Source: a virus (lineage: Duplodnaviria; Heunggongvirae; Uroviricota; Caudoviricetes). From it: DNA of 15,105 nt. Shown here piece by piece: positions 8,449 through 15,105 of the stretch. Position numbers and translations under genes: made by a program. The notes beneath the pieces were generated by a model, which saw only the letters and a list, made by a program, of their open reading frames with translations, ran no database searches and was not told the origin of the DNA. The stretch lies in IMG/VR virus record IMGVR_UViG_3300025466_001444, one strand, 5' to 3'. Position 1 is the stretch's first letter. Every line of letters starts with the position of its first letter.

Positions 8449-9492
8449 TTAAATAATAATTGTACTAAGTTTTTTTCTTAGTTCTTTTATCTGTGTGTCA
8501 AAAACAAAGTTAGAATTTTGATCTTCAAGATTAGCAATTTCAATCATGATTAAATCTTTTAAGGCTTTAGGATAATAATCATTAGAATTAGTCATCAAAG
8601 TATTCACTCTGTACTTCATATTACAAAATTCATATACAAGATATTCAGAATATTCGCCAAGCATCTTTTGAATTATTTCTCTGGTTATCTCTGGATTATT
8701 ATAATTGAAGTACTCTGTTCCATATACAGAATGATACAATCCAGCCAAAAGAACATCATCCGAAACGTTTCTATTTTTATGTTCTATATTTAACATAGTT
8801 CCAAAAAGATGTTCAAAAAACGATTTTCCACTATGTTTGACTTTGAACGTTAAGTCAGAAATAAAATTAACTAATGGAGAAACAACAGAAGGATCAATTG
8901 TTTTAATAACAAGAACACTTCTTAAGTCAGGACATGATCTTGAAAGTGGTCTGGCTGCATGTAATGCTGTAGATTCAAATATAAATATTCTTCCCATTTT
9001 TGGGAGAACAGAAACAACAATTTCATTATCAGCATTATCAATTTTCATATCACTATATATAACTGTTTCACCACCCCAATCTATATGCCATTTATTATTA
9101 AGATAGATTACTGCTGTTTCAGAAAGAGCAGTTGATCCATATTTTTCTTTTATCCAAACATCATCTTGATGAGCATACCCTTCAGTTCCATAAGTATAAC
9201 CATTAATATATGTTCTATAAAATCCTCTAGAACCAACAGTTGCCTGTAAAATTCCCCATATATTTTTAATTTCTGGATGATTATTTAAATATGATGTTTG
9301 ATTATGATCACATGGAAAACGAGTACTATTTGGTACAATTAATTTATTCCAGTGGCCCTGATCATATGATCTATTATTATTTGCTTTCCATCCATATGTA
9401 AGACCAGTGCTGACATATTTTCTATTAATATCATTTATAAGATCGAGGTCATCACCTTCTAAATCAAACACAGCACTTTTTATAGTATTCAT
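8449..9492 (-). CDS. 2OG-Fe(II) oxygenase fused to a C-terminal HD-like (DUF6817-like) domain
   Basis: HQD (HxD), WGGET and LHAARP...R oxygenase motifs; C-terminal HSGKSFFEHLFGT...LAGLYHSVYGT. Start moved to ATG 9492 (MNTIKS), which has SD AAGGAA and a late promoter upstream. Confidence 0.75.
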   Translation of the reverse strand: MNTIKSAVFDLEGDDLDLINDINRKYVSTGLTYGWKANNNRSYDQGHWNKLIVPNSTRFPCDHNQTSYLNNHPEIKNIWGILQATVGSRGFYRTYINGYTYGTEGYAHQDDVWIKEKYGSTALSETAVIYLNNKWHIDWGGETVIYSDMKIDNADNEIVVSVLPKMGRIFIFESTALHAARPLSRSCPDLRSVLVIKTIDPSVVSPLVNFISDLTFKVKHSGKSFFEHLFGTMLNIEHKNRNVSDDVLLAGLYHSVYGTEYFNYNNPEITREIIQKMLGEYSEYLVYEFCNMKYRVNTLMTNSNDYYPKALKDLIMIEIANLEDQNSNFVFDTQIKELRKKLSTIII

Positions 9493-9523
9493 ATTATTTT
9501 CCTTCATTCTCACATGATATACA

Positions 9524-9537
9524 TATTTATATAAATA
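9524..9537. promoter_or_regulatory. Overlapping divergent T4-type late promoters
   Basis: Perfect palindrome TATTTATATAAATA gives TATAAATA on both strands (9530-9537 +, 9531-9524 -), exactly between the divergent genes at 9492 and 9566. Confidence 0.7.
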
Positions 9538-9565
9538 TCTTATAGCCATAACAAGGATATCATAG

Positions 9566-10474
9566 ATGTGTACAGCTGTCGCCAAATATTTTAAAGGAAA
9601 AGGATGGGTCATTGCTAAAAATCGTGATCAAGATTACGTTTCCGAAGTTTCCTTTAAAGACTATAAAACCAAAAAAGTTGGCGAAATATTTTTCATGTAT
9701 GATTTTGAAACAAAATACAGAGAAGGTATGAACTATAAAGGTCTTGTCATTATCACAACAAGCTTAACCCCTACCCTTCTTGGTGAATCAAATGCAAAAG
9801 ATGGCGATGATATAGAAAAAGCATTACATATGACCGATCCAAAAGAAGCTGCAGAATTTTTAGTAAAACAAAAAATGACAGGGTTTATTTTTTGCTGTAC
9901 ACCAGAAAAGTTAGTTCTCGTAGAGGCTGCTAAAATGGATCAAGGTAAAGGCGAATATCATAGTATTATAAAAGAAATTCCAAAGTCGGAAGTTATTTCC
10001 CGTACAAATCATGGTATCGAATTGCCATGGGCTGGATTTCAAAGTGGTGTTAAAAAACAACAAGATATTTGGAGAAAATCTAGTGAAATGCGTATGGAAC
10101 AAGCATTAAAAACAACAAAAAATGCTAAAGATGCTAAAGAAATGCTTGAAGGATTGGCCAGCAAAATGACTGACGATTTTCAATATAATGTGTTTAGAAT
10201 TGAAAATAAACCAAGACAGATGCGTACAATTTTTCAATCAGCATATGTACCATCAGACGAATTAATTATAATAAGACCAATTCAGACCAAAATGGATATA
10301 AAAGTATCTCGTGAAATGATCCATGTCGATGTTCTTGATAACTCTTCACTTCATAAATTATATGATGGAAAAATAAAACATTTTTCTAAAATTGTTCCTA
10401 AAAATGATGAAGAAATAAAAACTGTTATACAAAAAGAACAATTTTTAGGGTTTAAAGAATTTGTAAATTATTAA
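9566..10474 (+). CDS. N-terminal nucleophile (Ntn) cysteine hydrolase-like protein
   Basis: Cys2 after Met (MCTAVAKY), KNRD motif and RTNHG motif, as in C45/choloylglycine hydrolase/NRDE-type Ntn hydrolases. Confidence 0.7.
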   Translation: MCTAVAKYFKGKGWVIAKNRDQDYVSEVSFKDYKTKKVGEIFFMYDFETKYREGMNYKGLVIITTSLTPTLLGESNAKDGDDIEKALHMTDPKEAAEFLVKQKMTGFIFCCTPEKLVLVEAAKMDQGKGEYHSIIKEIPKSEVISRTNHGIELPWAGFQSGVKKQQDIWRKSSEMRMEQALKTTKNAKDAKEMLEGLASKMTDDFQYNVFRIENKPRQMRTIFQSAYVPSDELIIIRPIQTKMDIKVSREMIHVDVLDNSSLHKLYDGKIKHFSKIVPKNDEEIKTVIQKEQFLGFKEFVNY

Positions 10475-10861: not shown

Positions 10862-10892
10862 AAAAGAGGGGATCAAAAATCCCCTCTTTTTT
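10862..10892. terminator. Bidirectional intrinsic terminator
   Basis: AAAAGAGGGGAT-CAAAA-ATCCCCTCTTTT hairpin with T-tracts on both strands, between convergent genes. Confidence 0.85.
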
Positions 10893-11094
10893 CATTAATA
10901 GTTATACGTAATAACTCTTTAATCAAACTTTTAGTTTCTTCTTCTGTAAAATGATTTAAAAATATTCTACAGGATGATTCGCACATATTAGATGCAAGAA
11001 GAAGCAAATCATTTGGCTCATCAGTCATTAAAATTTGTTGCTCAATTGGAGCAAACAATTCTGTTTTTCTTTTCAATAGTTTTTCAGTATTCAT
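10873..11094 (-). CDS. Hypothetical protein (73 aa)
   Basis: ATG 11092-11094 (MNTEKLLKRK) with AGGT upstream. The longer ORF-track version (to 11226) runs through two tRNA genes and is rejected. Confidence 0.6.
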   Translation of the reverse strand: MNTEKLLKRKTELFAPIEQQILMTDEPNDLLLLASNMCESSCRIFLNHFTEEETKSLIKELLRITINEKRGDF

Positions 11095-11109
11095 TTTATA
11101 ACCTGTTTT

Positions 11110-11187
11110 TGGAAGGGAAGATGGGAGTCGAACCCACCTAAAAAGGTTTTGCAGACCTTGCCATAACCGCTCTGGACTCACTTCCCC
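11110..11187 (-). tRNA. trnC: tRNA-Cys(GCA)
   Basis: GGGGAAG/CTTCCCT acceptor stem, U73 discriminator, AAGGT-CTGCAAA-ACCTT anticodon arm, TTCGACT T-loop, CCA. Confidence 0.9.
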
Positions 11188-11198
11188 GTATAAAGTAA

Positions 11199-11271
11199 TG
11201 GTGGAGTAAGTGGGACTCGAACCCACCTCAGATTCCTTGCAAAGGATTCCTGCTTGCCCTGAGCCTACCCC
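11199..11271 (-). tRNA. trnA: Atypical tRNA-Ala(UGC) with shortened D-arm region
   Basis: GGGGTAG/TTACTCC acceptor with G3:U70, loop TT-TGC-AA, perfect T-arm GTGGG-TTCGAGT-CCCAC, CCA. Only 16 nt lie between the acceptor and anticodon stems, and the anticodon stem has one mismatch. Confidence 0.7.
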
Positions 11272-11791
11272 AAGTATTTACATATTCTAGTACCTTATCT
11301 TCTATAAGGTATTTATGTTTGCTGTGCATGTACTGATGATGTGTCGGACATAATGGAACAAGATTTTCTGGTCTATTATCATTATGATTTTCATTTAAAT
11401 GATGAACAGCTACAACATTAACTTCTTCGCATACTAAACATTTTCTTTCATGATATCTCCAAGCAATAGTAACATATGTAGCTACCTCATCATAGTGATA
11501 TTTTTCAGATTTGGCTTTACCACCAATACTATTGGCACAACTTCTTGAACAAAAATATTGAGATTTAGAAGGGAATAAATTTTTTCTTTCTTCAACTTCA
11601 AATTCATTATTACAAGATTTACAAATAACAGAAAATTTTATGAAAGTTCCAAATCTTTTATCACTAGATTTGCTTATTTTATCATACGAAACTTTTCTAT
11701 TAGGATTTTTCTCACAATGTTTACTATGATTACCTTTTTCAGTTGTACGATTAAAATCAAATTCTTGATTGCAGTGTTTACATTTCCACAT
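11228..11791 (-). CDS. Zinc-finger HNH endonuclease (putative free-standing homing endonuclease)
   Basis: CKHC...HSKHC and CKSC...CSRSC Zn-binding motifs; C-terminal CLVC...VHHLNENHNDNRPENLVPLCPTHH HNH motif; SD GGAG. Confidence 0.85.
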   Translation of the reverse strand: MWKCKHCNQEFDFNRTTEKGNHSKHCEKNPNRKVSYDKISKSSDKRFGTFIKFSVICKSCNNEFEVEERKNLFPSKSQYFCSRSCANSIGGKAKSEKYHYDEVATYVTIAWRYHERKCLVCEEVNVVAVHHLNENHNDNRPENLVPLCPTHHQYMHSKHKYLIEDKVLEYVNTWGRLRASRNPLQGI

Positions 11792-11813
11792 TTTAATACT
11801 CCGTTTCTTGGAG

Positions 11814-11821
11814 TATTTATA
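11814..11821 (-). promoter_or_regulatory. T4-type late promoter for the HNH gene
   Basis: TATAAATA on the minus strand, 23 nt upstream of ATG 11791. Confidence 0.65.
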
Positions 11822-11866
11822 AATTGCAGAATTTCAACAATCTAATTGATTTCCCAAAAAATAAAA

Positions 11867-11965
11867 TGGACCCCTGCTAAATGCAAATCCTGAGAAGGAA
11901 TTTAACGGTTTTACCAGCAATTCTGCAGTGCAACGAGTTGTCTCAGTTACTCTCGTTTAGGTCCA
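11867..11965 (-). ncRNA. Putative 99-nt structured RNA downstream of the TROVE gene
   Basis: Terminal stem TGGACC/GGTCCA; internal helices AACGAG/CTCGTT, TGCT/AGCA, GGT/ACC and AAAT.CCT/AGG.ATTT; loop-loop complementarity CTGAGA/TCTCAG. The minus-strand reading ends in CCA followed by a T-rich run. Strand is uncertain. Confidence 0.55.
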
Positions 11966-11990
11966 TATTAGGGAGTTTCCCCCCTAATAT
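11965..11990 (-). other. 11-bp GAAA-tetraloop hairpin immediately after the TROVE stop codon
   Basis: ATATTAGGGGG-GAAA-CTCCCTAATAT. No U-tract follows on the minus strand, so it is more likely a processing/stability element than a terminator. Confidence 0.6.
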
Positions 11991-13424
11991 TTAGAAAGTA
12001 TAACGCTCATTCATGACTGCCTTCATCATAATAGCCTCTGGAGTAAATTCTTCCATGCCACCAGCAAGAACTGCCTTTAGAATGGAAGGAGAAAACCCAG
12101 AAACAAGTGCTGTTCCATTCTTATCGAACTTCACAGGAACATTATCATTAGAATTGAGATTCCAGAAAACAATCTTAGGAACTTCATATCCAGACTCAGC
12201 ATACTTACGCTCAATCATTTCAATACCAGAATCATCATAAGTGGCACATGAATCAAATTGCATATCAGAAAGAATCAAAAGAATCTTTGGCATTTCAGAC
12301 TGAGGAACATCACCAGCAACTGCTACCCCAAGAATCTTATGAATAGCCTTATGCAAATCAGTATTCATAGTCCAATTAGACCCAACCATTTGCTCAATCT
12401 TTTGAACAATATTTCCCTTAAGATGAAGCAATTCAGGATTGGCAGAGAAAGTTAGAAATGTATCCTTGAACTTACCAGTGTTTTTATCAGCAAGATACAA
12501 ACCAAGAGACACAGCAACATCAAGACAAGTAGTTCCAGACTTACTATTATATCTCCCAGCAGGACAAGTCATTGAACCAGAAACATCAACCAAAGGAAGA
12601 ATGTTTGCATCACCAACATAGTTGGGAAGAGCATCCCATTGGGCAGTAATATGATCAAGATTGGACTTGTTATAATCCATACGATAATGAGTAATTACAC
12701 CCTTTAATATATCGTAAGGATACACTGCACCAGCATTGACCTTAACAGAAGCCTTCACCTCTGGATCGGTAGAAACAAGAGCAGAAGTCCACTCCTTATA
12801 CTTATCGGTATGACGGGCAAATGCCTTCTTATAACGAGTAGAAGCAACAGAAGGAACATTATTGAAATTGATATTATCCCAATCCTTAGCACACATCTGA
12901 GTTTCGACAACCTTGGTCAATTCAACCAGACGCTTACGATAGAACTTAGGAGTCCAACCAAGGTGCTTACGGAGCTTCACAGCTACTTCACCCTGACGAG
13001 GCATCCACTTTGCGCAGAGACCCATATTGTCTTCAAGAGCAATACGGATCATATAGAATGCCTGTTCCTCCATAGGAGTACCAACAAGTACAAGCAGATC
13101 ATCCCAACGACCAAGCTCAGGAACCTTACGCATCACATCAGATGCACGAACCCGATCAGTGTTTGCCATATCAACAAGGATATCACGGAAGATCTTACGT
13201 TCGCCAGCACCACCACGAACGTCACGAGCCCAAAGAGCAATACGAGTTGCAAGCTCCTTGTCCTGAACATAAGCAGCAGTCCAAGCAGGAATTACATTTT
13301 GACCACGCATAGCGCCGATTTTGAAGAAAAGTGATGTTAATGCATTACCTGTATCTTTACGAGCTTTCATTCCATTAGTTGTTCTTTCAGATTGATTTTT
13401 CACTGCTTCTGTAAAAGTAGTCAT
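11991..13424 (-). CDS. TROVE/Ro60-like protein with C-terminal vWA domain (DUF2828-like)
   Basis: WARDVRGGAGER, GRWDDL, AKWMPR, vWA MIDAS DVSGSM, LSDMQFD, FWNL and VSGFS motifs; SD AAGGAG. Confidence 0.88.
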   Translation of the reverse strand: MTTFTEAVKNQSERTTNGMKARKDTGNALTSLFFKIGAMRGQNVIPAWTAAYVQDKELATRIALWARDVRGGAGERKIFRDILVDMANTDRVRASDVMRKVPELGRWDDLLVLVGTPMEEQAFYMIRIALEDNMGLCAKWMPRQGEVAVKLRKHLGWTPKFYRKRLVELTKVVETQMCAKDWDNINFNNVPSVASTRYKKAFARHTDKYKEWTSALVSTDPEVKASVKVNAGAVYPYDILKGVITHYRMDYNKSNLDHITAQWDALPNYVGDANILPLVDVSGSMTCPAGRYNSKSGTTCLDVAVSLGLYLADKNTGKFKDTFLTFSANPELLHLKGNIVQKIEQMVGSNWTMNTDLHKAIHKILGVAVAGDVPQSEMPKILLILSDMQFDSCATYDDSGIEMIERKYAESGYEVPKIVFWNLNSNDNVPVKFDKNGTALVSGFSPSILKAVLAGGMEEFTPEAIMMKAVMNERYTF

Positions 13425-13452
13425 TTTATATCTCCTTTGCTGTTATCAATCT
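13389..13452 (-). promoter_or_regulatory. Putative translational operator: array-type stem/CAGCA motif enclosing the TROVE SD and start codon
   Basis: AGATTGAT-AA-CAGCAAAGGAG-ATATAAA-ATG...ATCAATCT-G. 8-bp stem, CAGCA at position 11 and G after the stem, as in the array units. Confidence 0.65.
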
Positions 13453-13507
13453 TAACGTTTCTTATAAATACATTATCAATCACACATAGGACCGACAATG
13501 AAATATT

Positions 13508-13536
13508 ATATTAATATACTCTCTAATTATTGTCAA
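13508..13536 (-). promoter_or_regulatory. Sigma70-like promoter for the TROVE gene
   Basis: TTGACA (13536-13531), 17-nt spacer, TAATAT (13513-13508). Confidence 0.6.
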
Positions 13537-13542
13537 CTCAAC

Positions 13543-13715
13543 AGGTTAGTCGCATCATTATGGTACACCACTCAGATTGTAATACAAGACTACAACAAGT
13601 CAGGTTATTATGCAGTCCCCGCAGGAACCACGACCATCCAGTAGGCAAATGCCTTCGCTCTACCGCCTGCGCTGTTATCACGCTTTCAAATGCAGCTGTT
13701 TGCTGTATCTAACCT
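13543..13715 (-). ncRNA. Array unit E1 (173 nt), stem/CAGCA handle with degenerate tRNA-like cargo
   Basis: AGGTTAG-ATA-CAGCAAAC...CTAACCT-G. Internal D-arm-like AGCGCAGGCGGTAGAGCG and GGTCGTGGTTC. Confidence 0.7.
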
Positions 13716-13724
13716 TTATTCAAC

Positions 13725-13783
13725 AGGGTCAACTTTGGTCTTTTGTATGCAAAAAGATTTTTTATAGTTGCTGAACTGACCCT
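13725..13783 (-). ncRNA. Array unit E2 (59 nt)
   Basis: AGGGTCA-GTT-CAGCAAC...AAGT-TGACCCT-G; apical TCTTTT/AAAAGA hairpin. Confidence 0.75.
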
Positions 13784-13799
13784 TAAACTCTAACTCATC

Positions 13800-13857
13800 A
13801 GGATTGCCCTTTGCAGGTTTGATTACAAGTCAAGTGCATATATGCTGTAACAATCCT
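13800..13857 (-). ncRNA. Array unit E3 (58 nt), carries a Thr(UGU)-type anticodon stem-loop
   Basis: AGGATTG-TTA-CAGCATA...CAATCCT-G; internal TTGA-CTTGTAA-TCAA. Confidence 0.75.
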
Positions 13858-13867
13858 AAAACTCTAC

Positions 13868-13956
13868 AGGTTTCACTTTTTGCTGGGTTTGAACCAGCTA
13901 AAAAACCACGTAAAAGGCAGTTTTTATTATCCTAGAATGTTTGCTGAAGGAAACCT
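13868..13956 (-). ncRNA. Array unit E4 (89 nt), carries a T-arm
   Basis: AGGTTTC-CTT-CAGCAAAC...GAAACCT-G; internal GCTGG-TTCAAAC-CCAGC. Confidence 0.75.
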
Positions 13957-13975
13957 AAAACTTAATACTTATAAC

Positions 13976-14111
13976 AGATTGACTTCTACTTTCATTTTTT
14001 AAAGTGGATTCTATCGAAACATAACCACTTAAATTATGCCACATGGACACAATTATACGTAACAACAAAGTTACTAGACCGATAAAATGAGGTTTGCTGG
14101 AAGGTCAATCT
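13976..14111 (-). ncRNA. Array unit E5 (136 nt), cloverleaf-like cargo
   Basis: AGATTGAC-C-TTC-CAGCAAAC...GAA-GTCAATCT-G (bulged C); inner TCATTTT/AAAATGA stem carrying three hairpins. Confidence 0.7.
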
Positions 14112-14121
14112 TAAATTTTAC

Positions 14122-14179
14122 TGGATCAACTTGGGTCTTTTTTTGCGAAAGATTTTTGTTAGGTTGCTGAACTGATCCA
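14122..14179 (-). ncRNA. Array unit E6 (58 nt), paralog of E2; first unit in transcription order
   Basis: TGGATCA-GTT-CAGCAAC...AAGT-TGATCCA-G; compensatory stem changes relative to E2. Confidence 0.75.
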
Positions 14180-14187
14180 TAAACAGT

Positions 14188-14216
14188 ATATTAAACTACT
14201 TTCTTAAAGGTGTCAA
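14188..14216 (-). promoter_or_regulatory. Sigma70-like promoter driving the RNA array
   Basis: TTGACA (14216-14211), 17-nt spacer, TAATAT (14193-14188). The predicted start (about 14180) abuts the first base of E6. Confidence 0.7.
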
Positions 14217-14400
14217 TATCAAAAATGCCTTCTACGAAATTTTCTGCACAATCTTCTGCATAATGCAAACTGTGCTTAGTAACATCACGAACTTCTTCTA
14301 ATACATTATCAATGAATAATCTAACATGATAACCATCATCACATTTAATAATTTCTGCTCTACGGTTACGCTCATAATTGTAAAAACTAGAAAGAATCAT
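14191..14400 (-). CDS. Small hypothetical phage protein (69 aa)
   Basis: ATG 14398-14400 with GGAG 6 nt upstream (preferred to 14412); MILSSFYN...HSLHYAEDCAENFV. Confidence 0.7.
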   Translation of the reverse strand: MILSSFYNYERNRRAEIIKCDDGYHVRLFIDNVLEEVRDVTKHSLHYAEDCAENFVEGIFDIDTFKKVV

Positions 14401-14419
14401 ATCATTCTCCATATTAAAG

Positions 14420-14503
14420 TGGCGGAGGATAAAGGAATCGAACCATCAACCTTGCGGTGGCAGAGTTTTCAAGACTCTTTGAGCACCTTGCTCGCTATCC
14501 TCC
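14420..14503 (-). tRNA. trnS: tRNA-Ser(UGA)
   Basis: GGAGGAT/ATCCTCC acceptor stem, G73, AGAGT-CTTGAAA-ACTCT anticodon arm, long variable arm ACC-GCAA-GGT, TTCGATT T-loop, CCA. Confidence 0.92.
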
Positions 14504-15105
14504 AATTATCAACTCAGTAATCATTTCGGCTGTTGCAGGACTTAGTGTCCACCCCAAATGACCATGACCTGTATTATACCATATATTTTTCACTTTAGAC
14601 CTTCTAACCACTGGAAGCATAGTCGGTGTCATAGGACGCAAACCAGCCCAAGGATTAGTGTGTTCTGTAGATATATATGGGAAATTCTTACGCACCCATT
14701 TTACCAGTGGATCAATTCTGTCCTTACGAATATCATAGTTAATACCAGCAAGCTCTGCCGTACCAGCTACTCTAAATCTTGAACCTAATCGTGATGTTAC
14801 AATCTTTGCTTCATCATCAAGAAGACTTACCATAGGTGCATCTTCCCATCCATTACCAACTTCTAGTGTAATACTATACCCCTTTACTGGATAAATGTCA
14901 AGTGGGTCTCCAATATTTTTTGAAAATTCTGCACTTTTTACACCAGCACAAAGAACAACATGATCATATACATCTGCATCTGTAGGTTTTGCAGATTTTC
15001 CGTACATAAACTTAACATTATATTTTGATTTAAGAACTTTCTCCATACCAACACAAAACTTGTGGATATCTCCTGTCATATCAGACGGCGTATACGTACC
15101 ACCAA
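14495..15105 (-). CDS. dadA: FAD-dependent D-amino acid dehydrogenase (DadA/DAO family), C-terminal part; continues past the window's right edge
   Basis: TGDIHKF, VVLCAG, YPVKGYSIT, RVAGTAE, WAGLRPMTP and NTGHGHLGWTLS motifs. The frame is open to the window edge. Confidence 0.8.
   Translation of the reverse strand, partial: GGTYTPSDMTGDIHKFCVGMEKVLKSKYNVKFMYGKSAKPTDADVYDHVVLCAGVKSAEFSKNIGDPLDIYPVKGYSITLEVGNGWEDAPMVSLLDDEAKIVTSRLGSRFRVAGTAELAGINYDIRKDRIDPLVKWVRKNFPYISTEHTNPWAGLRPMTPTMLPVVRRSKVKNIWYNTGHGHLGWTLSPATAEMITELIIGG

What the first reader, a model, noticed from the sequence alone, without database searches (positions are those of the whole stretch)
11991..14216. TROVE/Ro60-like protein coupled to a promoter-driven array of six 'handle + variable cargo' small RNAs
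Seen in sequence: the apparently empty 13.53-14.19 kb region is six back-to-back units (58-173 nt, spacers 9-19 nt). The closing stems differ in sequence but always pair: AGGTTAG/CTAACCT, AGGGTCA/TGACCCT, AGGATTG/CAATCCT, AGGTTTC/GAAACCT, AGATTGAC/GTCAATCT, TGGATCA/TGATCCA. CAGCA starts at nt 11 of the 5' strand in five units (nt 13 in E5), and a G follows every stem. Interiors are unrelated except E2/E6, and several contain tRNA parts. Established: Ro60/Rsr TROVE proteins bind Y RNAs through a basal helix, and bacterial/phage YrlA RNAs carry a tRNA-like module. Inference: this is a phage RNP system in which a divergent TROVE-vWA (DUF2828-like) protein loads a repertoire of processed RNAs via a common CAGCA handle. 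Possible roles are decoys or tethers for host anticodon nucleases, tRNA repair, or RNA decay. I do not recognise the CAGCA handle or the multi-unit array as a described family.
Basis: partly seen in the sequence, partly recalled or inferred. Interest (0 to 1): 0.95.

Follow-up and report, generated by a model that had tools for sequence, protein, structure and literature searches.

The report
Phage Ro60-like protein with Y-like RNAs
An uncultured freshwater T4-like phage encodes a ring-shaped relative of the RNA-binding protein Ro60, and just upstream six small RNAs that share one conserved "handle" but carry different bodies; the same protein-RNA pairing recurs in many unrelated phages and is in no RNA database or paper I could find.

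Summary
On the minus strand, 14179-13543, lie six tandem units of 58-173 nt with 9-19 nt spacers. Each has a 7-8 bp closing helix, a short linker, a CAGCA(A) box and a G after the helix. Shuffled sequence gives 0.03 such units.

The gene downstream (13424-11991) matches Pfam DUF2828 and DUF7788. Its predicted fold is Ro60: a TROVE ring plus a vWA domain with an intact MIDAS site.

The pairing is conserved. In 80 IMG/VR relatives, units reach 4 per kb just upstream of the gene and about 0.05 per kb elsewhere. A covariance model built without window sequences gave 101 of 101 hits on the gene strand, and six of seven helix pairs covary. The same RNA sits beside homologues in Listeria, Mycobacterium, Campylobacter, Vibrio, E. 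coli and Synechococcus phages.

No Rfam family reaches its threshold. The handle is not the GNCGAA site of YrlA. It does resemble Dictyostelium Class I RNAs, below threshold.

The Bas63 homologue gp130 is reported to counter the Ppl defence.

Most likely this is a second, undescribed kind of Ro/Y-RNA particle. Binding and function are untested.

This scan has found the same family before on other DNA.

The parts
11991..13424 (-). Gene for a 477-aa Ro60-like protein: an N-terminal helical ring domain and a C-terminal vWA domain.
   Evidence: Pfam DUF7788 at 2.6e-49 and DUF2828 at 2.5e-15. AF2 model with pLDDT 76.8. Foldseek matches to Ro60/TROVE structures 9kop, 2i91, 1yvp, 9l5y and 2nvo at E 1e-8 to 1e-7 and TM 0.5-0.6. 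MIDAS residues D280, S282, S284, T355 and D387 are invariant in 31 homologues.
13389..13452 (-). Seventh, handle-like element in the mRNA leader. An 8-bp helix AGATTGAT/ATCAATCT encloses a CAGCAA box, the Shine-Dalgarno sequence and the ATG; the 3' strand lies in codons 10-12. It is a possible autoregulatory operator.
   Evidence: Descriptor hit. Covariance model R1 scores it 30.2 bits, E 1e-4 to 9e-4, which is within the range of the true units. It is not conserved in relatives, and the complementarity test against shuffled stems was not significant.
13508..13536 (-). Sigma-70-like promoter TTGACA-17-TAATAT, between U6 and the gene.
   Evidence: 10 of 12 consensus positions match. It is one of the two best sites in 11700-14600. 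This is a consensus match only.
13543..13715 (-).
   Evidence: Metatranscriptome contigs of 145 and 203 nt from two studies lie on 13549-13693 and 13554-13743, at about 93-95% identity, so they come from relatives. This is weak evidence.
13725..13783 (-). U5 (E2), 59 nt, stem AGGGTCA/TGACCCT, paralogue of U1.
   Evidence: R1 scores it 36.7 bits. It is 83% identical to U1.
13800..13857 (-). U4 (E3), 58 nt, stem AGGATTG/CAATCCT, body with an anticodon-arm-like hairpin.
   Evidence: R1 scores it 39.7 bits. Fold. A metatranscriptome contig covers 13802-13863 with no differences.
13868..13956 (-). U3 (E4), 89 nt, stem AGGTTTC/GAAACCT, body with a T-arm-like hairpin.
   Evidence: R1 scores it 25.4 bits. 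It is the best weak hit of RF01414, at 23.9 bits. Fold.
13976..14111 (-). U2 (E5), 136 nt, stem AGATTGAC/GTCAATCT extended past a bulged C, three-hairpin body.
   Evidence: Folding z-score -2.58.
14122..14179 (-). U1 (E6), 58 nt, stem TGGATCA/TGATCCA.
   Evidence: R1 scores it 24.9 bits.
14188..14216 (-). Sigma-70-like promoter TTGACA-17-TAATAT, ending 8 nt before U1. The 5' end of U1 would then be at or next to the transcription start.
   Evidence: A similar promoter ends 7-40 nt before a unit in 29 distinct promoter-unit pairs; 28 of them are in related loci and one is this phage's own copy, L004.

Best explanation
The array encodes six small non-coding RNAs that are the partner RNAs (functional 'Y RNAs') of the Ro60-like ring protein encoded just downstream.

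All six RNAs share one handle:
- a 7-bp helix that joins the 5' and 3' ends, with A-U as the first pair, an invariant G-C as the second and U-A as the fifth;
- a 3-nt U-rich linker;
- a single-stranded CAGCAA box;
- an unpaired G straight after the helix.

I infer that the handle is the protein's binding site. The bodies differ, and some show isolated tRNA arms. I infer that they give each particle its own specificity, as tethers or decoys for tRNA- or RNA-directed enzymes. By analogy with Rsr-Y RNA-PNPase, and given the homologue's reported role against the Ppl defence, the particles most likely protect or manage RNA during infection.

Transcription probably starts at the promoter 8 nt before U1. 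The gene has a second, identical promoter. A seventh handle copy around its ribosome-binding site may let the protein repress its own translation.

Shown here: the units, helix covariation, linkage to the gene, and the predicted Ro60 fold. Inferred: binding, processing and function.
For: 1. The units are real and far above chance: 7 observed against 0.03 in shuffles.

2. In 83 loci holding homologues of 42-100% identity (80 from IMG/VR, three from cultured phages), units with the same geometry occur at 3.97 per kb in the 500 nt upstream of the gene. On the opposite strand and downstream they occur at 0.0-0.1 per kb.

3. Model R1 was built from six units, none from the window. It gave 101 hits at E <= 0.01 over 713 kb searched on both strands, and all 101 lie on the gene strand. 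It finds U1, U3, U4 and U5 in the window.

4. All 546 helix cells in the alignment are paired. 151 cells carry changes on both sides, and 6 of 7 pairs covary. Slid controls pair only 34-46% of cells.

5. The same handle lies beside 30-49%-identical homologues in cultured phages of Listeria, Mycobacterium, Campylobacter, E. coli, Vibrio and Synechococcus. In whole-genome scans of five of these phages, every hit lies within about 7 kb of the gene on its strand. Those hosts have different RNases, so a phage-encoded reader of the handle is the simplest explanation.

6. The predicted fold is Ro60/TROVE plus vWA, with invariant MIDAS residues.

7. There is precedent. Y RNAs are encoded within 4 kb of Ro60 orthologues on the same strand (PMC4201824). 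Thermus phage phiLo Ro60 binds two Y-like RNAs encoded upstream of its gene (PMC12135203).

8. Bas63 gp130 is 37% identical over the full length. It is reported to counter the Ppl defence (bioRxiv 10.1101/2024.10.10.617714). Bas63 carries three units in the gaps between its tRNA genes.
Against: - No binding, expression or processing data exist for this phage or for any member of this RNA family.
- In the preprint, gp130 expressed alone from a plasmid rescued T7 on a Ppl host. At least that activity therefore does not need the phage's own handle RNAs.
- The protein has no detectable sequence similarity to Ro60. The handle differs from the known Ro60-binding site, the GNCGAA bulged helix.
- The tRNA likeness of the bodies is fragmentary. 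The tRNA covariance model finds nothing in the array.
- Gene and RNAs both sit in tRNA clusters, so part of the linkage could reflect a shared 'RNA module' rather than a physical complex.
Confidence: 0.75

Rival explanations
1. The handle is a processing or stability signal read by a ribonuclease or another RNA-maturation factor, not by the Ro60-like protein. On this view the small RNAs belong to the phage tRNA operon. They sit next to the gene only because both are part of the same tRNA/RNA-repair module.
For: The units sit in or beside tRNA clusters in every phage examined. Their flanks are conserved: U-rich on the 5' side and GUU on the 3' side. gp130 works against Ppl without the RNAs.
Against: The handle is conserved across phages of Firmicutes, Actinobacteria, Proteobacteria, Campylobacterota and Cyanobacteria, whose processing enzymes differ. 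Density peaks within 500 nt of this gene rather than along the tRNA arrays. In whole genomes the hits cluster by the gene.
Confidence: 0.12
2. The units act mainly in cis. They would be repeated operator or leader structures that titrate the protein and set the expression of its gene, and would not be free-standing trans-acting RNAs.
For: Arrays most often lie directly upstream of the gene on the same strand. In this window a seventh copy encloses the Shine-Dalgarno sequence and ATG. KVP40 has a 6-bp handle-like element across its start codon, with the same stem as its true unit.
Against: In Mycobacterium phage Jubie and in the Felix O1-type phages the units lie downstream of the gene, between tRNAs. 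In KVP40 a unit lies 7 kb away. Many units have their own promoter 7-40 nt upstream. The start-codon copy is not conserved, and the complementarity test was not significant.
Confidence: 0.08
3. The units are non-functional repeats, such as miniature mobile elements or recombination scars, with no role as RNA.
For: They are tandem and vary in number between relatives.
Against: Strand bias is total, at 101 of 101. The helix is kept through compensatory changes while the bodies diverge. The design is conserved across phages whose proteins are only 30% identical. The units have promoters.
Confidence: 0.02

Closest known systems
Ro60/Rsr with Y RNAs: Deinococcus Yrn1, Salmonella and mycobacterial YrlA/YrlB (PMC4201824), and Thermus phage phiLo Ro60 with Yrl1/Yrl2 (PMC12135203; PDB 9KOP, 9L5Y)
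   Same: The protein is a ring-shaped TROVE plus vWA protein with a MIDAS site. One or more small RNAs are encoded within a few kb on the same strand. A terminal helix joins the RNA's 5' and 3' ends and has a conserved motif on its 5' strand. The bodies are variable and some resemble tRNA. The genes lie in an RNA-repair or tRNA context.
   Different: The protein belongs to other Pfam families (DUF2828/DUF7788) and shows no sequence match to TROVE or Ro60. The handle is a 7-bp helix plus a single-stranded CAGCAA box and a 3' G, not the GNCGAA bulged helix. Arrays hold up to six or more units instead of one to four RNAs. No Y_RNA or YrlA match appears even at E <= 10.
Dictyostelium Class I RNAs (Rfam RF01414; Kjellin et al. 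2021, PMC7919456)
   Same: A short covarying helix joins the ends. A conserved 5' (A)AG pairs with a 3' C(U). A U-rich linker precedes a CAGCAA box, and the same positions (C1, C4, A5, A6) are the most conserved in both. An unpaired G(U) follows the helix. The body is variable and A/U-rich, 42-65 nt in the amoeba against a 48-62 nt main size class here. RF01414's best hit in the array, and in four of five whole phage genomes, is a handle unit.
   Different: Scores of 13-24 bits lie well below the gathering score of 41.5. The box starts one nucleotide earlier in the phage RNAs. Class I RNAs are single eukaryotic genes with a DUSE promoter. Their only shown binder is the RRM protein Rnp1A/Cibp, and the paper reports them as unique to Dictyostelia. 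I could not test whether dictyostelids encode a DUF2828/DUF7788 protein.
Bas63 gp130, reported as a counter of the Ppl defence (bioRxiv 10.1101/2024.10.10.617714)
   Same: It is a homologous protein: 37% identity over the full length, E 2e-96. It has the same position beside a tRNA array, and handle RNAs are present in the gaps between its tRNA genes.
   Different: The preprint noted only the structural likeness to Ro60. It guessed that some annotated tRNAs might be Y RNAs and did not identify the handle RNAs. gp130 alone was enough to counter Ppl in T7.

Membership tests
Pfam DUF2828 (PF11443) / DUF7788 (PF25043) proteins | Score above Pfam's curated cut-off for both domains | tested here: met
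   DUF7788 scores 167.9 bits against a cut-off of 27.1. DUF2828 scores 56.7 bits against 29.
Ro60/TROVE proteins | Sequence match to the TROVE domain or to solved Ro60 proteins | tested here: not met
   Pfam lists no TROVE hit. A profile search of PDB sequences finds no Ro60 at E <= 1.
Ro60/TROVE proteins | Helical-repeat ring followed by a vWA domain with a MIDAS site | tested here: met
   The predicted model aligns to Ro60, Rsr and phiLo Ro60 over residues 12-471 at E 1e-8 and TM 0.5-0.6. The MIDAS residues DxSxS, T and D are invariant. This rests on a prediction with pLDDT 76.8, not on a solved structure.
Ro60/TROVE proteins | Binds Y RNA through a conserved helix | not testable with these tools
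   This needs EMSA, RIP-seq or a solved structure.
Bacterial/phage Y RNAs of the YrlA type | GNCGAAN0-1G motif in the Ro60-binding helix (PMC4201824), or a match to the Rfam Y RNA models | tested here: not met
   The box is CAGCAA. No Y_RNA or YrlA hit appears in the window at E <= 10, or in six related loci at gathering score.
Bacterial/phage Y RNAs of the YrlA type | Encoded within about 4 kb of the Ro60-type gene, on the same strand | tested here: met
   The array ends 119 nt upstream of the start codon, on the same strand. The same holds in relatives.
Bacterial/phage Y RNAs of the YrlA type | A tRNA-like domain with D and T arms | tested here: inconclusive
   Isolated T-arm-like (U3), anticodon-arm-like (U4) and D-arm-like (U6) hairpins are present. 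The tRNA model gives no hit in the array.
Dicty_Class_I_RNA (RF01414) | Score at or above the Rfam gathering score of 41.5 bits | tested here: not met
   The best score is 23.9 bits for U3 and 17.8 for U5. Other phages give 13-24 bits.
Dicty_Class_I_RNA (RF01414) | Terminal short helix, adjacent conserved motif ending in CAGCAA, conserved (A)AG start and CUGU end | tested here: met
   The phage consensus is uuAGGAUnn-nUw-CAGCAA...nnAUCCU-GUU. The Rfam consensus is GaUcuC-CUUA-CAGCAA...GagAuC-UG (PMC7919456). The box is offset by one nucleotide.
Dicty_Class_I_RNA (RF01414) | Dictyostelid gene with a DUSE promoter about 60 nt upstream | tested here: not met
   This is a phage locus with sigma-70-like promoters.
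CAGCAA-handle RNAs beside DUF2828/DUF7788 genes (undescribed; defined in this scan) | Covarying 7-bp terminal helix, 3-nt linker, CAGCAA box and 3' G, on the strand of a DUF2828/DUF7788 gene and near it | tested here: met
   All six units meet the descriptor. Four are found by model R1, which was built from other phages.

The most novel reading that the evidence does not exclude
The phage handle RNAs and the orphan Class I RNAs of Dictyostelium are one RNA class. On this reading Class I RNAs are the Y-RNA-like partners of an amoebal DUF2828/DUF7788 (Ro60-like) protein. This protein family, with a CAGCAA-handle RNA, would then form a widespread second Ro/Y-type ribonucleoprotein shared by phages, bacteria and some eukaryotes.
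Probability: 0.1. Interest if true: 0.9.

Novelty: new variant of a known kind. Interest (0 to 1): 0.75.

Why it matters
Ro60 and its Y RNAs are a classic RNA-surveillance particle and a human autoantigen. In bacteria and phages only the YrlA/Yrn1 type of partner RNA has been described.

Here a much larger protein family adopts the Ro60 fold. 710 cultured-phage records also hold a homologue. This family travels with its own, different RNA handle, often as multi-unit arrays whose bodies display pieces of tRNA.

That gives a testable RNA partner for a protein already implicated in countering a bacterial defence (Bas63 gp130 against Ppl). It supplies unannotated RNA genes for hundreds of well-studied phages, including the Felix O1, P100/A511, KVP40, Campylobacter and Vilmaviridae-family mycobacteriophage groups. 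It also offers a concrete, falsifiable lead on what the unexplained Class I RNAs of social amoebae bind.

Tried and rejected
- **Rfam.** At gathering score the window gives only tRNAs. At E <= 10 the array gives no Y_RNA, YrlA or tRNA, only sub-threshold RF01414 hits.
- **Megablast of 11900-14500 against cultured phages.** No match.
- **PDB sequence profile search.** No Ro60; only the fold search shows the relation.
- **MAFFT alignments of whole units (A1, A2).** They put the 3' stems out of register. I therefore built the model from six equal-length units. Model R1 misses the long units U2 and U6, which only the descriptor finds.
- **Conservation of the start-codon handle.** Only 5 distinct loci show any complement in the coding region. 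Among loci with a gene-proximal handle, 3 were observed against 1.7 expected from shuffled stems (486 of 2000 shuffles reached 3). This is not significant.
- **Whether dictyostelids encode the protein.** I could not answer this. The AFDB Swiss-Prot search lists no Dictyostelium DUF2828 protein. AFDB cluster rows carry no organism. The Atlas rows are viral. The 5.8-billion-protein search was filled by close relatives. Avesson 2011 is not held.
- **Sequencing runs.** The first search listed no RNA holder. The second found six metatranscriptomes, each holding a small share. When laid, short contigs from four studies cover U6-like and U4-like sequence and tRNA-Ser. They are contigs of relatives, chosen by this very stretch, and may include DNA, so they do not show expression.
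- **Complex prediction.** Not used, because it cannot take RNA.
Full report
**Setting.** The window is bases 28550-43654 of a 44.7-kb IMG/VR virus record, about 22% complete. It comes from freshwater metagenomes. Most genes are on the minus strand. The window holds tRNA genes for Val, Glu, Tyr, Thr, Leu and Ser, an HNH-like ORF and other small ORFs. The closest cultured relatives of the protein studied here are T4-like phages of Synechococcus, Citrobacter, Cronobacter and Vibrio, at 42-49% identity.

**Observation.** Read on the minus strand, 14179-13543 holds six back-to-back units:

| Unit | Coordinates | Length |
|---|---|---|
| U1 | 14179-14122 | 58 nt |
| U2 | 14111-13976 | 136 nt |
| U3 | 13956-13868 | 89 nt |
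| U4 | 13857-13800 | 58 nt |
| U5 | 13783-13725 | 59 nt |
| U6 | 13715-13543 | 173 nt |

The spacers are 9-19 nt. Each unit opens with a 7-8 nt strand that is perfectly complementary to the unit's last 7-8 nt. CAGCA starts at nt 11, or nt 13 in U2. A G follows each closing strand.

Seven of the eight CAGCA sites on this strand of 13380-14220 have such a helix plus G. In 300 dinucleotide-preserving shuffles the mean was 0.03 and the maximum 1. Minimum-free-energy folds keep every closing helix. U1 and U5 are 83% identical, with two compensatory stem changes.

**The protein.** ORF 13424-11991 (477 aa) matches Pfam DUF7788 (2.6e-49) and DUF2828 (2.5e-15), and no TROVE model. A profile of 31 homologues finds no Ro60 among PDB sequences.

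The AlphaFold model (pLDDT 76.8) has a helical N-terminal half and an alpha/beta C-terminal half. Foldseek aligns nearly its whole length to the following, at E 1e-8 to 1e-7 and TM 0.5-0.6:
- the TROVE crystal structure 9KOP and the Ro60 of Thermus phage phiLo (9L5Y);
- Xenopus Ro60 (1YVP, 2I91);
- Deinococcus Rsr (2NVO);
- human, mouse and worm Ro60.

The MIDAS residues D280, S282, S284, T355 and D387 are invariant. The protein is thus a structural Ro60 relative from a different sequence family. That family is very large: 710 cultured-phage records hold a homologue, and the capped big search returned at least 8000 proteins.

**Is the RNA tied to the gene?** I fetched 80 IMG/VR loci with homologues of 52-100% identity. 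One of them, L004, is this same phage. I added three cultured-phage loci.

A descriptor (7-bp helix with at most one G-U pair, 3-nt linker, CAGCA, 20-300 nt body, G after the helix) gave these densities:
- 147 hits in the 500 nt just upstream of the gene on its strand, or 3.97 per kb;
- 0.1-0.6 per kb further upstream;
- 0.0-0.1 per kb downstream and on the opposite strand.

There are 144 distinct units with 55 different 5' stems. Lengths run from 48 to 298 nt, with a main class at 48-62 nt.

I then built covariance model R1 from six equal-length units, none from the window. Over 713 kb searched on both strands it returned 101 hits at E <= 0.01, all on the gene strand. In the window it finds U4 (39.7 bits), U5 (36.7), U3 (25.4) and U1 (24.9).

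On the resulting alignment all 546 helix cells are paired. 151 cells carry changes on both sides and six of seven pairs covary. Sliding the partner columns drops pairing to 34-46%. The alignment is fitted to the model, so the 100% figure leans its way. The descriptor counts and the strand bias do not depend on that fit.

The consensus is uu-AGGAUnn-nUw-CAGCAA ... nnAUCCU-GUU. The invariant positions are the second pair (G-C), C1, G3, C4 and A5 of the box, and the G after the helix.

**Breadth.** The same design lies beside 30-49%-identical homologues in very different cultured phages:
- Synechococcus phage BUCT-ZZ01: three units upstream.
- Listeria phage LP-048: three units upstream.
- Campylobacter phage CPX: two units upstream.
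- Mycobacterium phage Jubie: three units downstream.
- E. coli phage VpaE1: four units downstream, between tRNAs.
- Vibrio phage KVP40: one unit beside tRNA-Ser.

In whole-genome scans of five of these phages with R1, every hit at E <= 0.1 lies within about 7 kb of the gene on its strand. These hosts span five phyla with different RNA-processing enzymes. The simplest reader of a handle conserved across them is therefore the phage protein that always accompanies it. That step is inference.

**Transcription.** The two best sigma-70-like sites in 11700-14600 share identical hexamers, TTGACA-17-TAATAT, on the minus strand. One ends 8 nt before U1. The other lies between U6 and the gene. A similar promoter ends 7-40 nt before a unit in 29 distinct promoter-unit pairs. 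One of these is the window's own copy (L004) and 28 are in related loci. These are consensus matches, not mapped transcription starts.

Public metatranscriptomes gave only short contigs of relatives over U6-like and U4-like sequence. I do not count that as evidence of expression.

**A seventh copy.** The stretch 13452-13389 has the 5' strand AGATTGAT, then AA, then CAGCAA running straight into the Shine-Dalgarno sequence and the ATG. The 3' strand ATCAATCT lies in codons 10-12 and is followed by G. R1 scores it 30.2 bits, within the range of the true units. Binding of the protein there would enclose the ribosome-binding site, which suggests autoregulation.

The element is not conserved, however. 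Close relatives instead have an ordinary unit ending about 20 nt before the ATG, with a CCGCAA variant of the box. Complementarity between proximal stems and the coding region is no more frequent than with shuffled stems. KVP40 has a 6-bp analogue. I rate this part as possible but unproven.

**Comparison with what is known.**

- **Bacterial and phage Y RNAs.** They are defined by a Ro60-binding helix with a GNCGAA motif and, for YrlA, a tRNA-like domain. They lie within 4 kb of the Ro60 gene on the same strand (PMC4201824). phiLo Ro60 binds two Y-like RNAs encoded upstream of its gene and forms a complex with host PNPase (PMC12135203). The arrangement here is the same. The protein family and the handle are different, and no Rfam Y RNA model matches.
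- **Dictyostelium Class I RNAs.** RF01414 is the only Rfam family that responds to the array (23.9 and 17.8 bits against a gathering score of 41.5). Run over five whole phage genomes, its best hit is a handle unit in four of them, with genome-wide E of 0.003-0.35. Kjellin et al. describe Class I RNAs as 42-65 nt long, with a 6-bp terminal helix, an adjacent 11-nt motif ending in CAGCAA, an (A)AG start and a CUGU end. They report them only in Dictyostelia, with an RRM protein as the one shown binder (PMC7919456). The design matches closely, including which box positions are invariant. The scores fail the family threshold, and I could not find out whether dictyostelids have the protein. I therefore treat this as a resemblance, not as membership.

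**Function.** A preprint reports that Bas63 gp130 counters the Ppl defence and notes its Ro60-like fold. It guesses that some neighbouring tRNAs may be Y RNAs. I confirmed that gp130 is a full-length homologue (37% identity, E 2e-96). I also found that Bas63 has three handle units in the unannotated gaps between its tRNA genes.

gp130 alone rescued T7 on a Ppl host. The RNAs are therefore not needed for that effect, or host RNAs can substitute.

My best reading is a Ro/Y-type particle whose RNAs specialise or regulate the protein during infection. I put 0.75 on the RNA-protein partnership and well under 0.5 on any particular downstream role.

**Earlier work in this scan.** After reaching the points above, I found that earlier agents had reported the same handle-RNA family beside DUF2828-type genes on other genomes, including the Class I resemblance. 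No paper or Rfam entry describing the family turned up.

Noticed in passing
window 11867-11965 (-), with a hairpin at 11965-11990 (-): Directly after the stop codon of the Ro60-like gene comes a strong hairpin. After it lies a 99-nt element closed by TGGACC/GGTCCA and followed by a T-run. It has no CAGCAA box and no Rfam match at E <= 1. It may be another small RNA or an unusual terminator.
   Followed up: partly
window 11113-11187 (-): A tRNA-like gene is found by the Rfam tRNA model (36.6 bits) but not by ARAGORN. Its anticodon loop reads GCA (Cys), and its D arm carries a 3-nt insertion. It lies inside the mechanical ORF 10873-11226, next to an HNH-like ORF (11228-11791). A weak tmRNA-like hit lies at 11199-11271.
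   Followed up: partly
L005-L009, L011, L014-L016, L025: about 75 to 20 nt upstream of the gene start: In the closest relatives, the unit nearest the gene has the box CCGCAA instead of CAGCAA (stem AGATTCA/TGAATCT). The second box position therefore tolerates change. The same position is among the less conserved in Dictyostelium Class I RNAs.
   Followed up: partly
L003 (Vibrio phage KVP40) 3966-4005: A 6-bp handle-like element with a CAGCAA box spans the start codon of the KVP40 homologue. It uses the same stem (GACATT) as the true unit at L003 595-841.
   Followed up: partly
L088 (Escherichia phage Bas63, MZ501086) 32071-32142, 32238-32300, 32693-32765: Handle RNAs lie in the unannotated gaps between annotated tRNA genes, just downstream of gp130. 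The last one overlaps a small annotated hypothetical ORF on the other strand.
   Followed up: yes
window 11814-11821 (-): A T4-type late-promoter-like TATAAATA lies just upstream of the HNH-like ORF.
   Followed up: no
L085 (Listeria phage LP-048) 7852-11503: The Listeria phage locus also carries an RtcB-like ligase, a second RNA ligase and a 'tRNA amidotransferase' within 5 kb of the Ro60-like gene. This echoes the rsr-rtcBA linkage known in bacteria.
   Followed up: no
window 8449-9612 (-), 9566-10474 (+), 14495-15103 (-): Neighbouring ORFs match 2OG-Fe(II) oxygenase plus DUF6817, an AAT-type acyltransferase fold, and an FAD-dependent oxidoreductase (DAO). I did not examine any relation to the RNA system.
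   Followed up: no
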